Shown: piece after piece, positions 25,201-28,200 of the stretch
Layout: every line of letters begins with the position of its first letter
How positions within the stretch are numbered: the first letter of the stretch is position 1
Origin: Escherichia coli
GTDB taxonomy: Bacteria; Pseudomonadota; Gammaproteobacteria; Enterobacterales; Enterobacteriaceae
Length of the DNA stretch: 64,000 bases
Reading direction: 5' to 3' (one strand)
Assembly: GCF_051903065.1 (NCBI RefSeq)
Contig: NZ_CP178438.1
Made by a program: the position numbers

Positions 25201-28200
25201 GCTGCACAACAGCACTCGCCCGTCGATATCCCAGGAATGAATGGTCCGCGGGCGCGGATACTCCGTTGCCAGTTCGCCGTAGACATCATCTTCAAAAATC
25301 ACAATATCATGACGCTGAGCGAGAGAGAGAACGGCCCGTTTGCGCGCGTCCGGCATAATAAATCCCAGCGGATTATTACAGTTTGGCACCAGAATGATGC
25401 CTTTAATCGGCCACTGTTCCAGCGCCAGCTCCAGCGCTTCAACGCTGATGCCAGTTTCTGGATCGGTTGGGATTTCAATCACTTTCACGCCCATGCCGCG
25501 CAGCATCTGCATTGAACCGTAATAACAGGGGGATTCGACCGCGACAATATCGCCCGGTTTACACACCGCCATTAACGCCATCGACATCGAGTTATGGCAG
25601 CCGCTGGTGATGATGATGTCATCGGCGGTGACCACCGAGCCGCTGTCGAGCATCAGGCGGGCAATCTGCTCTCGCAATACCCGCTGACCGGCTAACAAGT
25701 CATAACCGAGAACGGTTTGCAGATTATGCTGTACCACCCGGCTTAGCTCCCGCCAGAGTGGTTTCAGGCTGGGCGTTTCGACATCCGGTGTGCTTTTGCT
25801 TAACGGAACAATGGAACTGTCGCTATGCGCCTCCAGCATATCCAGCACCTGATCCCACTGGGTAATTTCCACCGGGCGTTGCACCGGACGCGTCATCGGC
25901 GGCACTGGCGGTTGGGCTTTACGTTGTGCGACAAAATAACCCGAACGCGGCTGCGGAGTGATGAGCTTCATCGTCTCCAGCGTCTGATACGCCTGCTGCA
26001 CGGTGCTGATGCTGACGCCGTGCTCCTGACTTAAGCTGCGCACCGACGGCAATTTCTCCCCGTGACGATACAGCCCTTGCTCAATCCGCTCGGCAAGCAG
26101 AGTTGCCAGATGTTGATAACGCGTCATGCTGTATTCCTTATTTGGACCATACAGAGAGAAAAACCGGTACAGATGAGGCTAAAAAACCGGATGCAGATGC
26201 TGTTTTAACCTGTCTGTATGTTAAATAAAACTAATATTTGCATCTGTATTGTGAACTGCCAGAAGACGGATGATGAAGCCTCTGAAAGATGAGGAGGCAG
26301 CAGATGGAATTTCACGAAAACAAAGCCAAAACGCCGTTTATCAGACTTGTACAACTCTGGCAGGCGGTGAGGCGTTGGCGGCGGCAAATGCAGGCCCGAC
26401 GGGTGTTACAGCAGATGAGTGATGAACGGTTGAGGGATATCGGGTTACGCAGGGAGGATGTGGAGTGAGGGGGGAAATTCCCCTTCCCGTGTGGGGAAGG
26501 GGAGAGAAACTTAGCGTGGCGTTTTGCTACTAATCACCCCAATAAATTCCTGCACCTGCTTTTGTTTACGCACCGATAGCTTGCACACCTTTCGCAGCGA
26601 CTGCATCAGTTCGCTCTCTTCGATGGCGGGTGGTTGGGCGGTGAGGACAATACAGCCTTCCATCACTTTGACATCTACCGCCGTGCCAGTGGCAAAACCG
26701 GCGGCTTCCAGCCACTGACCTTTCAGGGTGATGGCGGGAATACGGCTGTAATCCGGGTAGCGGCTCGCATAACTCACGGTTAATTGACGGTTATTTGCCG
26801 GGGAGACTTCTGCTTCGAACGGTTGTGCAATAGAATGCGTGTCAGTCATAACTGCTATTCCTTGAAAATAGTGATTGTGATGAGCGGTGCGGGTGTGTTG
26901 GCGCACATCCGCACCGCGCTAAATACCTGGATATATCATCAGTAAATACAGGGAAAGTCCAGCTAAAAATAGAAAATAATAAAAGCGTTACTGGAAAGAT
27001 CTGGAAGAGAAATTAACGTTAATTCAGAATTGCCGGATAACAAAGTGTATCCGGCCTTCATAATTAATTTAAAGCACTCATATGGTGTTCTTTAAAATTC
27101 TCTGCCTGTGCCAGCACACCCATATAAACATCATCATTCGCTACTGGCGGGAACTTATGCTTGTGTAGAAGCAGAATAAGTTCAACTTTCAGTTTCGCTT
27201 TAATATCATCGCGTTTACTCCAGTCAGGATATTTCGATGTGTTGTCAACCACGCTTTTCATCTCTTTTGCCAGTGACAGCATTTTTTCATCGTCATAGGT
27301 GAACTGATATTTATCGCGCATATGAGCAAGAATGTCGAAAAACGCTTTTTCTTCAATATCAATACCTAAATCGGCCCAGGTGCCCATTTCGGTTTTAATA
27401 TCATAGATAATATCGGTCATTTCCTGACTGAATGTATCGAATTCTTCACCGTTGAGTACATCATCTTCTCGCCGCTCATTATAACGATCTATAATCGCCT
27501 GGAAGCGGCGGGTGAAGTTAATCCCTTGCAACTGGTTCACTTTCTTGAAGTCGCTGATCGCTTTTTCCAGTAATTTTTGTAATAACTGGATCTTCGTTGC
27601 CGGAAGTTTGATCTTGTTAATTCGCGCCAGATAATCTTCGTCAAAAATATCGATGGATTCCGCTTTTTTATCGCCAAGAAAATAAATTTCTTCTACGCCA
27701 TCAGCTTTTAGCGCTTCTGCAATCATTTCACGAACGCGTGCATTCATCTGGGTGACATCCGGTGCGTCACCTTTCGTCAGTTTGAAAACAATTGAACGAA
27801 CAGCAAGATAATAGTGAATATAGTCACGTTCTGTCTGTGATAATGCTTCGCTGCCGCAGCAGACGTCGTAGGCGGCTTTCATGCGTTTAACCAGTCCCAT
27901 AAACCGACGTTCAACTTTCTGGGTACGCAGAACGAATTCCGCCGCGCGGTTGAGGCAGGATAATTGCGCTTGTGGCTCACCACTAAAATAATCCCGACTG
28001 TCAAATTCGTAAAAGACTTGCCCCAACAAATCGAGATGGTTTTTAACTTCTATTACCGATTGCTGAATATCTTCAAAGTTGGTGGCATCAATGCGGGAAT
28101 ACATTGCCAGTGCCTGGTTCATCTGACTTTTAATGCCGATGTAGTCCACCACTAACCCTTTGCTTTTGCCTTCCAGTTTACGGTTAACGCGAGAAATAGT

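What the first reader, a model, noticed from the sequence alone, without database searches (positions are those of the whole stretch)
26511..26942. SymE toxin with a predicted SymR antisense RNA and a LexA box
symE is intact. On the opposite strand a TAGAAT -10 element inside the first symE codons and a GC-rich hairpin about 77 nt downstream reproduce the known SymR geometry. A CTG-N10-CAG LexA-like box lies about 80 bp upstream of symE. This suggests the SOS-inducible type I toxin-antitoxin circuit is functional here even though its neighbours differ from K-12 (the toxin sits beside hsdR instead of between mcrB and hsdS).
Basis: partly seen in the sequence, partly recalled or inferred. Interest (0 to 1): 0.35.

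Follow-up and report, generated by a model that had tools for sequence, protein, structure and literature searches.

The report
Ordinary E. coli symE/symR locus
This is the well-known E. coli symE gene with its SymR antisense RNA and its LexA (SOS) operator, all intact, sitting in a common strain variant of the restriction-gene island; it is correctly read but not new.

Summary
symE (26511-26849, minus strand; 112 aa) matches Pfam SymE_toxin and the NCBIfam SymE equivalog. Rfam finds SymR at exactly 26844-26920 (+), 91.7 bits against a gathering score of 61. The LexA box (20-mer 26925-26944, CTG-N10-CAG core 26927-26942) is 19/20 identical to the K-12 yjiW/symE box.

The symR promoter region is 100% identical to K-12 for 58 nt upstream of the SymR start. 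In K-12, mutating that -10 abolishes SymR.

As a bare motif the LexA box is not significant. Its support comes from orthology and from a box at the same distance from the ATG in 42 of 47 symER loci across about 15 enterobacterial genera.

SymR's two-hairpin fold shows covariation (9 of 15 pairs in hairpin 2). It holds on the SymR strand (97.4% of cells paired) but less on the symE-mRNA strand (76.6%).

The context (yjiS / symE / hsdR-hsdS-hsdM) occurs in 995 of 5426 complete E. coli genomes, including ST131 strains. It is one known form of the variable immigration control region.

Verdict: already known, ordinary, low interest. Expression and SOS induction remain inferred by homology. The 'endoribonuclease toxin' label for SymE has been challenged: a 2022 study found DNA binding and nucleoid condensation instead.

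The parts
26511..26849 (-). symE coding sequence (112 aa plus stop)
   Evidence: ORF. Pfam SymE_toxin E=1.4e-21. NCBIfam SymE equivalog 219 bits against cutoff 132. 89% identical to K-12 SymE and 96% to ST131 SymE. The last 7 residues (ISSKTPR) differ from K-12 (IAGKQKVA) because nucleotide homology to K-12 stops at 26532.
26844..26920 (+). SymR antisense RNA, 77 nt, complementary to symE nt +6 to -71 (start codon, Shine-Dalgarno and most of the 5' UTR)
   Evidence: Rfam RF01809, 91.7 bits against GA 61, model 1-77 of 77. MFE -39.3 kcal/mol, z=-6.1. In 51 distinct homologues 97.4% of cells are paired and 10 pairs change on both sides. Pairing holds on this strand but less on the opposite one (97.4% against 76.6%).
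26845..26881 (+). SymR hairpin 1; its 7-nt loop (26860-26866, CCUUGAA) is complementary to the symE Shine-Dalgarno region
   Evidence: Fold. Loop sequence is hypervariable between strains while the stems are constant.
26884..26917 (+). SymR hairpin 2 (15-bp GC-rich stem, terminator-like, no U tract)
   Evidence: Fold. 9 of 15 pairs show changes on both sides across genera. The consensus terminator scan does not call it because there is no T run.
26831..26836 (+). symR promoter -10 hexamer TAGAAT, inside symE codons 5-7
   Evidence: Sequence. The 58 nt upstream of the SymR start are 100% identical to K-12, where -10 point mutations abolish SymR (PMC1891008). At this position 55 sequences carry TAGAAT (34), TACAAT (20) or TACACT (1), even though the overlapped SymE residues change.
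26808..26813 (+). possible symR -35 (TTCTGC, 17-nt spacer); weak match, assignment tentative
   Evidence: Sequence. 'cTTCTGg' is conserved, but it overlaps conserved codons, so this conservation is not independent evidence. Not called by the consensus scan.
26859..26863 (-). symE Shine-Dalgarno (AAGGA), 9 nt before the ATG, covered by SymR
   Evidence: Sequence. K-12 has GGAG at the same place. A GGA/GAG/AGG core is kept in all six E. coli alleles compared.
26925..26944 (-). LexA (SOS) box TACTGATGATATATCCAGGT; CTG-N10-CAG core at 26927-26942
   Evidence: 19/20 identical to the K-12 box TACTGATGATATATACAGGT. The symE/yjiW promoter is reported to have a LexA site and to be damage-induced (PMC1891008). 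It is the best LexA matrix hit in the window at 13.4 bits. C at the variant position occurs in 7 of 18 published boxes. A box lies at the same distance from the ATG in 42 of 47 loci from other species.
26956..26961 (-). symE promoter -35-like element TGGACT, 11 nt upstream of the LexA box, so the box covers the -10/start region
   Evidence: CTGGACTTT is at least 80% conserved across genera in the upstream alignment. The -10 hexamer could not be assigned confidently, and the consensus scan finds no promoter at its thresholds.
27064..30339 (-). hsdR of a type I restriction-modification operon (hsdM 31761-33380, hsdS 30422-31804, hsdR), co-directional with and immediately upstream of symE (context, not part of the circuit)
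   Evidence: Pfam HSDR_N, SWI2_SNF2, T1RH-like_C; Methylase_S; N6_Mtase. TIGR00348. RefSeq annotation of the identical locus.
26289..26468 (+). yjiS (DUF1127), convergent downstream neighbour of symE (context)
   Evidence: Pfam DUF1127; RefSeq yjiS. A 10-bp hairpin in the 42-nt gap (about 26479-26503) folds at -20.2 kcal/mol, z=-3.8.

Best explanation
The region is an intact copy of the characterised enterobacterial symE/symR module.

Proposed mechanism:
1. LexA binds the box at 26925-26944. This box lies 11 nt downstream of the conserved -35-like TGGACT, so it covers the -10/start region of the symE promoter and keeps symE transcription off until DNA damage inactivates LexA.
2. The opposite strand constitutively makes the stable 77-nt SymR RNA from a promoter whose -10 (TAGAAT) lies in symE codons 5-7.
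3. SymR is perfectly complementary to the symE start codon, Shine-Dalgarno sequence and almost the whole 5' UTR. It blocks translation and lowers mRNA levels.
4. Any SymE that is made is degraded by Lon.
5. SymE itself is an AbrB/MazE-fold protein that inhibits growth when overproduced.

What is shown here: the presence, integrity, exact geometry and evolutionary conservation of every sequence element. What is inferred by near-identity to K-12: transcription of SymR, LexA binding, SOS induction and repression.

The neighbourhood (hsdM-hsdS-hsdR upstream, yjiS downstream, no mcrBC) is one common allele of the variable immigration control region.
For: - Rfam symR at 26844-26920, 91.7 bits against GA 61.
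- SymE family models well above curated cutoffs.
- Nucleotide homology to K-12 runs from 26532 to about 26980. It includes 100% identity over the symR promoter and start, and a 19/20 match in the LexA box.
- K-12 experiments: SymR is 77 nt, its promoter is embedded in symE, -10 mutations abolish it, symE is LexA-controlled and mitomycin-C-induced, and Lon degrades SymE (PMC1891008).
- SymR fold: z=-6.1; covariation in hairpin 2; strand-specific pairing with 323 G.U cells against 15 A.C cells.
- The -10 is retained as TAnAAT in 54 of 55 homologues (the other is TACACT) even though the overlapped SymE residues change.
- A LexA box lies at the same distance from the ATG in 42 of 47 loci from about 15 genera, and the -35-like CTGGACTTT is conserved.
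- The C allele at box position 15 is seen in 5 of 6 sampled E. coli, and the exact 61-nt allele is in 630 genomes.
- The same context occurs in 995 of 5426 genomes. The immigration control region is described as variable and as carrying symE symR (PMC12707154).
Against: - No expression or binding data exist for this strain.
- The LexA box is weak by motif score (13.4 bits, equal to the weakest of 18 training sites), and a random 64-kb sequence reaches that score 21% of the time.
- Simple consensus scans call neither promoter and no terminator. SymR hairpin 2 has no U tract.
- The biochemical activity of SymE is disputed: endoribonuclease in Kawano 2007, non-specific DNA binding and nucleoid compaction in Thompson 2022 (via PMC11894785).
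- Helix 1 statistics are partly fixed by the search pattern used to collect homologues.
Confidence: 0.93

Rival explanations
1. The module is present, but SOS control is weakened or lost in this allele. The LexA box carries A->C next to the CAG arm relative to K-12, and the spacer region carries two further substitutions (CCCTGTATTT against CCCCATATTT). symE would then be partly constitutive and held in check only by SymR and Lon.
For: Matrix score falls from 14.7-14.8 bits (K-12) to 13.4 bits (window). Both lie at the bottom of the range of verified boxes (13.4-28.3 bits). Some E. coli alleles fall further, e.g. TACTGATGATATGTCCAGGT at 9.1 bits.
Against: C at that position occurs in 7 of 18 published functional boxes: recN, dinI, ruvA, uvrD, cho, uvrB, dinB. 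Both CTG and CAG arms are intact. The C allele was in 5 of 6 sampled E. coli, so K-12 was the exception in that small sample. The exact 61-nt promoter allele is shared by 630 genomes. The box position is conserved across genera.
Confidence: 0.1
2. symE here is transcribed mainly by read-through from the co-directional hsdM-hsdS-hsdR operon, which ends 215 nt upstream of the symE ATG. Its own LexA-controlled promoter would be secondary, so SymE supply would be linked to the restriction system rather than to SOS.
For: hsdR and symE are on the same strand with a 214-nt gap. The only structure after hsdR is an 8-bp hairpin without a U tract, and no consensus terminator is found. A hsdSMR deletion in CFT073 changed expression of the flanking yjiW, which the authors called a polar effect (PMC8287963).
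Against: The symE promoter elements (the -35-like CTGGACTTT and the LexA box) are conserved across genera whether or not hsd genes are present upstream. SymR would still block translation of any read-through transcript. The direction and strand of the CFT073 effect were not examined here.
Confidence: 0.05
3. The locus is not a toxin-antitoxin system in the functional sense. SymE would be an SOS-induced nucleoid-associated DNA-binding protein, and SymR simply a translational repressor that tunes its level.
For: Thompson et al. 2022, as summarised in PMC11894785, found no RNA cleavage. They found genome-wide non-specific DNA binding and nucleoid compaction on overexpression. SymE has an AbrB/MazE DNA-binding fold (PMC1891008). 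SymR is stable and in about 10-fold excess, unlike a labile antitoxin (PMC1891008).
Against: This changes the label and the effector biochemistry, not the regulatory circuit that the finding describes. Overproduction is still growth-inhibitory in both studies. It cannot be addressed from sequence.
Confidence: 0.5

Closest known systems
E. coli K-12 symE/symR (yjiW/ryjC), Kawano, Aravind and Storz 2007 (PMC1891008); Rfam RF01809; Pfam PF08845
   Same: Same gene and same antisense RNA in the same geometry: SymR starts opposite symE nt +6 and is 77 nt long. The symR promoter is identical for 58 nt upstream of the SymR start. The LexA box matches 19/20 at the same distance from the ATG. The two-hairpin fold is the same. 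SymE is 89% identical.
   Different: The last 7 SymE residues differ (ISSKTPR against IAGKQKVA). The 6-nt loop-1/SD segment differs (TTCAAG against CCTGGA, sense strand). An A.C mismatch in K-12 hairpin 2 is a G-C pair here. The flanks differ: hsdR upstream and yjiS downstream, instead of hsdS (type IA) and mcrB.
symE loci of ST131 and other E. coli with the yjiS-symE-hsdR arrangement (e.g. EC958, O25b:H4; strain TUM13936)
   Same: Same gene order and same alternative SymE C-terminus. The 701-nt query is 95.6-100% identical. 995 of 5426 complete genomes share this context.
   Different: The ST131 allele carries an inversion of the 12-nt apex of SymR hairpin 2 and a different loop-1 sequence.
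tisB/istR-1 (SOS-induced type I toxin-antitoxin of E. coli)
   Same: A LexA-repressed growth-inhibitory gene whose translation is held down by a constitutively made small RNA. istR2 appears among the LexA boxes, and the pair is reviewed with symER in PMC4147584 (listed, not read here).
   Different: From general knowledge: TisB is a 29-aa membrane peptide and IstR-1 is divergently encoded, pairing with a standby site. SymE is a 112-aa soluble AbrB-fold protein, and SymR is fully cis-antisense over the SD and AUG.
MazE/AbrB-fold antitoxins and transcription factors
   Same: SymE shares the AbrB fold (PMC1891008).
   Different: SymE acts as the growth-inhibitory partner and has no protein partner. 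Its regulator is an RNA.

Membership tests
SymE protein family (Pfam PF08845; NCBIfam NF010128 equivalog) | Protein scores above the curated family cutoffs | tested here: met
   Pfam 76.7 bits against 29. NCBIfam 219.3 bits against 132, covering residues 1-110 of a 113-position profile.
SymE protein family (Pfam PF08845; NCBIfam NF010128 equivalog) | Full-length uninterrupted ORF comparable to the characterised K-12 protein (113 aa) | tested here: met
   112 aa with ATG start, 89% identical to K-12; only the last 7 residues diverge.
SymR RNA (Rfam RF01809) | Covariance-model score at or above the gathering threshold over the full model | tested here: met
   91.7 bits against 61, E=1.5e-16, model 1-77 of 77, at 26844-26920 (+).
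SymR RNA (Rfam RF01809) | Encoded in cis, antisense to the symE 5' end, covering the start codon and ribosome-binding site | tested here: met
   SymR 26844-26920 (+) overlaps symE ATG 26847-26849 and SD 26859-26863 (-).
SymR RNA (Rfam RF01809) | Promoter embedded in the symE coding sequence with a functional -10 | tested here: met
   TAGAAT at 26831-26836. The 58 nt upstream of the SymR start are identical to K-12, where -10 mutations abolish SymR. TAnAAT is conserved in 54 of 55 homologues. Promoter activity itself was not measured.
SymR RNA (Rfam RF01809) | Conserved two-hairpin secondary structure supported by compensatory changes | tested here: met
   97.4% of cells paired, 10 pairs with changes on both sides, and 0 of 500 shuffles reach the observed score. 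Pairing is specific to the SymR strand. Helix 1 is partly fixed by the search pattern; helix 2 is not.
SymR RNA (Rfam RF01809) | A stable ~77-nt transcript is actually produced | not testable with these tools
   Needs Northern blot or RNA-seq.
LexA regulon (SOS box) | CTG-N10-CAG palindrome with AT-rich spacer resembling TACTG(TA)5CAGTA | tested here: met
   TACTGATGATATATCCAGGT at 26925-26944. It is the only one of 22 CTG-N10-CAG sites in the window with an AT-rich spacer and TA/GT flanks.
LexA regulon (SOS box) | Motif score clearly within the range of verified operators and above chance | tested here: inconclusive
   13.4 bits, equal to the weakest of 18 published boxes. 21% of simulated 64-kb sequences reach it.
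LexA regulon (SOS box) | Orthologous to an experimentally supported operator and positionally conserved relative to the regulated gene | tested here: met
   19/20 identical to the K-12 yjiW/symE box at the same offset of -95. A box lies 88-100 nt upstream of the ATG in 42 of 47 loci from other species. The box lies 11 nt downstream of the conserved -35-like element.
LexA regulon (SOS box) | LexA binding and DNA-damage induction | not testable with these tools
   Shown for K-12 only (PMC1891008).
Type I toxin-antitoxin systems | Antitoxin is an RNA that base-pairs with the toxin mRNA to block its translation or stability | tested here: met
   Perfect cis complementarity over the SD and AUG. Repression itself is shown in K-12 only.
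Type I toxin-antitoxin systems | Toxin is a small hydrophobic membrane peptide (typical of the class) | tested here: not met
   SymE is a 112-aa soluble AbrB-fold protein. This is the known atypical feature of symER, not a peculiarity of this copy.
Type I toxin-antitoxin systems | Defined toxic activity (endoribonuclease) | not testable with these tools
   Disputed in the literature.
E. coli immigration control region (variable defence island between yjiS/yjiN and yjiA) | Located between the conserved anchor genes and accompanied by type I R-M and other defence or TA genes | tested here: met
   Gene order is yjiR, yjiS, symE, hsdR/S/M, a restriction endonuclease, brnT/brnA, yjiA, with an rpn gene before yjiR. 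This matches the description in PMC12707154 and PMC3874165.

The most novel reading that the evidence does not exclude
symER may be more than a passenger in the island. It could be a conserved junction module functionally coupled to type I restriction operons.

It lies immediately downstream of, and co-directional with, the last hsd gene of three unrelated type I families in E. coli. The same holds in 17 of 38 assessable loci from other genera. An SOS-induced, DNA-coating SymE could protect the chromosome from self-restriction after DNA damage (restriction alleviation), or it could stabilise the cassette.

Nothing here tests this. It rests on adjacency only.
Probability: 0.05. Interest if true: 0.5.

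Novelty: already known. Interest (0 to 1): 0.08.

Why it matters
It matters little as a discovery. The locus is a textbook example of an SOS-controlled gene repressed by a cis-antisense RNA, and this copy has all the known parts. The result is useful as an annotation check. RefSeq annotates symE but not SymR in the matching genomes, so a plus-strand SymR feature at 26844-26920 and a LexA operator at 26925-26944 can be added with confidence. The cross-genus comparison made here adds independent support for the SymR fold, for the promoter embedded in the coding sequence and for the LexA operator. It does not change what was already understood about the system.

Tried and rejected
1. Consensus promoter/terminator scan of 26400-27100. 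It found neither the symR nor the symE promoter and no terminator. The thresholds (at least 4/6 in each hexamer; T run after the stem) are too strict for these elements, so I did not take this as evidence against them.

2. Bare CTG-N10-CAG count and a LexA weight matrix built from 18 published boxes. Neither makes the box significant on its own, so I rejected the motif score as the basis for the claim and used orthology and positional conservation instead.

3. Assigning the symE -10. TGATAT (17-nt spacer), GATATA (18) and TATATC (20) are all poor matches. I left it unassigned.

4. Papers not held in the library: Thompson et al. 2022 (PMC9018529), Sibley and Raleigh 2004 (PMC373321) and Titheradge et al. 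2001 (PMC60208). The SymE DNA-binding result is therefore cited second-hand from PMC11894785. I could not confirm assignment of the hsd operon to type ID. That assignment is inferred only by exclusion, because the review lists types IA, IB and ID in this island and this operon differs from the IA and IB examples.

5. Assuming the window is colinear with strain TUM13936. It is not throughout, so the RefSeq coordinates of that strain were used only where the sequence matches.

6. A second LexA box created by the CTGTAT substitution upstream. No second CTG-N10-CAG or matrix hit is present.
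Full report
**What is in the sequence.**
The minus strand carries an uninterrupted ORF from ATG 26849 to the stop at 26511-26513. It encodes 112 aa beginning [15 protein letters not shown]. It matches Pfam SymE_toxin (E=1.4e-21) and the NCBIfam SymE equivalog (219 bits against a cutoff of 132). It is 89% identical to K-12 SymE and 96% identical to the ST131 allele.

On the plus strand, Rfam's SymR model matches 26844-26920 over its whole length. The score is 91.7 bits against a gathering score of 61, E=1.5e-16, and it is the only Rfam hit in the 64-kb window. 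The RNA folds into two hairpins, 26845-26881 and 26884-26917, at -39.3 kcal/mol with z=-6.1.

TAGAAT lies at 26831-26836, inside symE codons 5-7 and 7 nt upstream of the SymR start. CTGGATATATCATCAG lies at 26927-26942, which is 78-93 nt upstream of the symE ATG.

**Comparison with the characterised K-12 locus.**
Nucleotide homology to K-12 runs only from about 26532 to about 26980. Within it:
- The 58 nt upstream of the SymR start, which hold the whole symR promoter, are 100% identical.
- The LexA box read on the symE strand is TACTGATGATATATCCAGGT, against TACTGATGATATATACAGGT in K-12 (19/20).
- The SymR sequence differs at one hairpin-2 position, where an A.C mismatch in K-12 becomes a G-C pair here.
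- It also differs at one linker base and in a 6-nt stretch that forms the loop of hairpin 1 and, on the other strand, the region just 5' of and including the symE Shine-Dalgarno sequence.

Kawano et al. 2007 showed the following in K-12 (PMC1891008):
- SymR is a 77-nt RNA whose promoter is embedded in symE.
- Two -10 point mutations abolish it.
- Removing it raises symE mRNA about 3-fold and SymE protein more than 7-fold.
- The symE promoter has a LexA site and is induced by mitomycin C.
- Lon degrades SymE.

Because the elements here are identical or nearly so, the same circuit is the most likely reading. This is inference by homology, not a measurement.

**Is the LexA box more than chance?**
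Not as a motif.
- CTG-N10-CAG occurs 22 times in the window against 12.1 expected.
- I built a weight matrix from 18 published boxes (PMC3009722). It ranks this site first in the window at 13.4 bits.
- That score equals the weakest training site, and 21% of simulated 64-kb sequences reach it.
- The K-12 box is barely better, at 14.7-14.8 bits.

The support comes from elsewhere.
- The site is orthologous to the K-12 operator.
- The variant base (C next to the CAG arm) occurs in 7 of the 18 published boxes. It was also the allele in 5 of 6 E. coli sampled.
- The position is conserved across genera, as described next.

**Related loci.**
A degenerate pattern covering only SymR hairpin 1 and the base of hairpin 2 found 48 loci in one-genome-per-species contigs. 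The genera include Citrobacter, Salmonella, Klebsiella, Raoultella, Enterobacter, Leclercia, Kluyvera, Kosakonia, Pantoea, Pseudocitrobacter and others.
- Every locus has a SymE-like ORF starting at the expected ATG. A few ORFs are truncated or cut off by the end of the fetched stretch.
- In 42 of the 47 loci with enough upstream sequence, a CTG-N10-CAG box lies 88-100 nt upstream of the ATG. One further locus has the box displaced by an insertion. This region was not part of the search pattern.
- Eleven nucleotides upstream of the box, CTGGACTTT is conserved. It contains a -35-like TGGACT, at 26956-26961 in the window. The box therefore covers the -10/start region of the symE promoter.
- I could not assign the -10 hexamer with confidence.

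**SymR structure and strand.**
On 51 distinct sequences, 97.4% of cells pair and 10 pairs show changes on both sides. Nine of those pairs are in hairpin 2, which the search pattern did not constrain. No shuffle out of 500 reaches the observed covariation score, and sliding the partner columns destroys the signal.

The same pairs read on the opposite strand, the symE 5' UTR, are only 76.6% paired. There are 323 G.U cells on the SymR strand but only 15 A.C cells. The fold is therefore selected in the plus-strand RNA.

The hexamer 7 nt upstream of the SymR start is TAGAAT (34 sequences), TACAAT (20) or TACACT (1) among 55 sequences. This holds even though the overlapped SymE residues change between HSI, DCI, NSI and ECN. 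That pattern is what a promoter embedded in a coding sequence should show.

**Context.**
The neighbours are yjiS (DUF1127, convergent) on one side and a type I operon hsdM-hsdS-hsdR on the other. The operon is co-directional with symE and ends 215 nt upstream of the symE ATG.

In K-12, symE lies between hsdS (type IA) and mcrB. Other E. coli have an EcoAI-family (type IB) hsdS upstream and gmrSD downstream.

Population counts from complete E. coli genomes:

| Feature | Genomes (of 5426) |
|---|---|
| 449-bp symER module | 2872 |
| This yjiS-symE-hsdR context (at least 80% of the 701-nt query) | 995 |
| Exact 61-nt promoter/operator allele | 630 |

The 995 genomes with this context include ST131 strains such as EC958. 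The island is the known variable immigration control region, described as carrying type IA, IB and ID systems together with the brnAT, symE symR and rpn toxin-antitoxin systems (PMC12707154; PMC3874165). A Citrobacter genome has the same hsdMSR-symE arrangement, with HsdR 92% identical. The different neighbourhood is real but ordinary.

**Caveats on function.**
- Consensus scans call neither promoter and no terminator. SymR ends after a hairpin without a U tract, as in K-12.
- SymE's activity is disputed. Kawano et al. proposed an endoribonuclease-like toxin. Thompson et al. 2022, summarised in PMC11894785, found no RNA cleavage and reported non-specific DNA binding with nucleoid compaction.
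- Read-through from hsdR into symE cannot be excluded. The only structure after hsdR is an 8-bp hairpin without a U tract, and a polar effect on yjiW was reported after hsdSMR deletion in CFT073 (PMC8287963).

**Verdict.**
This is an already known system in a common genomic variant. Interest is low.

Noticed in passing
window 26511-26532 (3' end of symE) and about 26975-26980 (upstream end of the module): Homology to K-12 and to most other E. coli stops inside the last 7 codons of symE and again about 130 nt upstream of the ATG. symER therefore behaves as a conserved module of about 450 bp between variable cassettes. Strains with the yjiS-symE-hsdR arrangement (this window, ST131) share an alternative SymE C-terminus, ISSKTPR, instead of IAGKQKVA.
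   Followed up: partly
window 26895-26906 (apex of SymR hairpin 2); L003 (ST131), also L007, L023, L042, L045 and L054: The 12-nt apex of hairpin 2 occurs in two orientations that are exact reverse complements: GTGTTGGCGCAC here and in K-12, GTGCGCCAACAC in ST131. Flipped or similar apices also occur in several other genera. This looks like repeated inversion of the hairpin tip, which keeps the stem but swaps the loop between SymR and the symE mRNA.
   Followed up: no
window 26860-26866 (SymR loop 1, covering the symE Shine-Dalgarno region): This 6-7-nt segment is hypervariable. Six E. coli strains carry five alleles and 51 homologues carry many more, while the flanking stems are nearly invariant. 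Only a GGA/GAG/AGG core (the SD) is kept. The cause (relaxed constraint or diversification) was not examined.
   Followed up: no
window 26850-33380; loci L001, L004-L006, L008-L053: symE sits immediately downstream of, and co-directional with, the last gene of type I hsd operons from three different families in E. coli. The same is true in 17 of 38 loci from other species that have at least 1.2 kb of upstream sequence. The other 21 loci show no hsd gene detectable with the queries used.
   Followed up: partly
window 27028-27051 (minus strand, just after the hsdR stop): An 8-bp hairpin, GCCGGATA-N8-TATCCGGC, without a U tract (-17.6 kcal/mol, z=-4.8). It may be a weak terminator or a REP-like element between hsdR and the symE promoter.
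   Followed up: partly
window 26479-26503 (between the convergent yjiS and symE): A 10-bp CCCCUUCCCC/GGGAAGGGG hairpin (-20.2 kcal/mol, z=-3.8) lies in the 42-nt gap. It is a plausible bidirectional terminator.
   Followed up: partly
window 38883-50493: An 11.6-kb segment is absent from strain TUM13936. It carries the hpa (4-hydroxyphenylacetate catabolism) gene cluster between btsT and tsr. It is present at at least 80% coverage in 2019 of 5426 complete E. coli genomes and is 100% identical to strains 23CRST027 and 23CRST031.
   Followed up: yes
window 23529-24473 (+); 33444-34610 (-); about 34807-35094 and 35081-35383 (+): Other defence or TA-type genes of the island are present: an Rpn-family nuclease gene, a 388-aa 'restriction endonuclease' with no NCBIfam hit, and a BrnT/BrnA toxin-antitoxin pair next to yjiA. 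The hsdS gene here (1383 nt) differs in length from that of TUM13936 (1401 nt), although the symE region is identical. That suggests a different specificity subunit.
   Followed up: partly
window 855-1624 and 14338-15396: Two short stretches do not align with strain TUM13936, although the flanking sequence aligns at 96-99% identity. Their content was not examined.
   Followed up: no
window 8840-8859 and 57345-57364: These are the next-best LexA-matrix hits: CACTGTTTGTATCCCCAATA at 12.9 bits (lacks the CAG arm) and GACTGTCAGGGTAAACAGTG at 10.1 bits. Both are within the range expected by chance.
   Followed up: no
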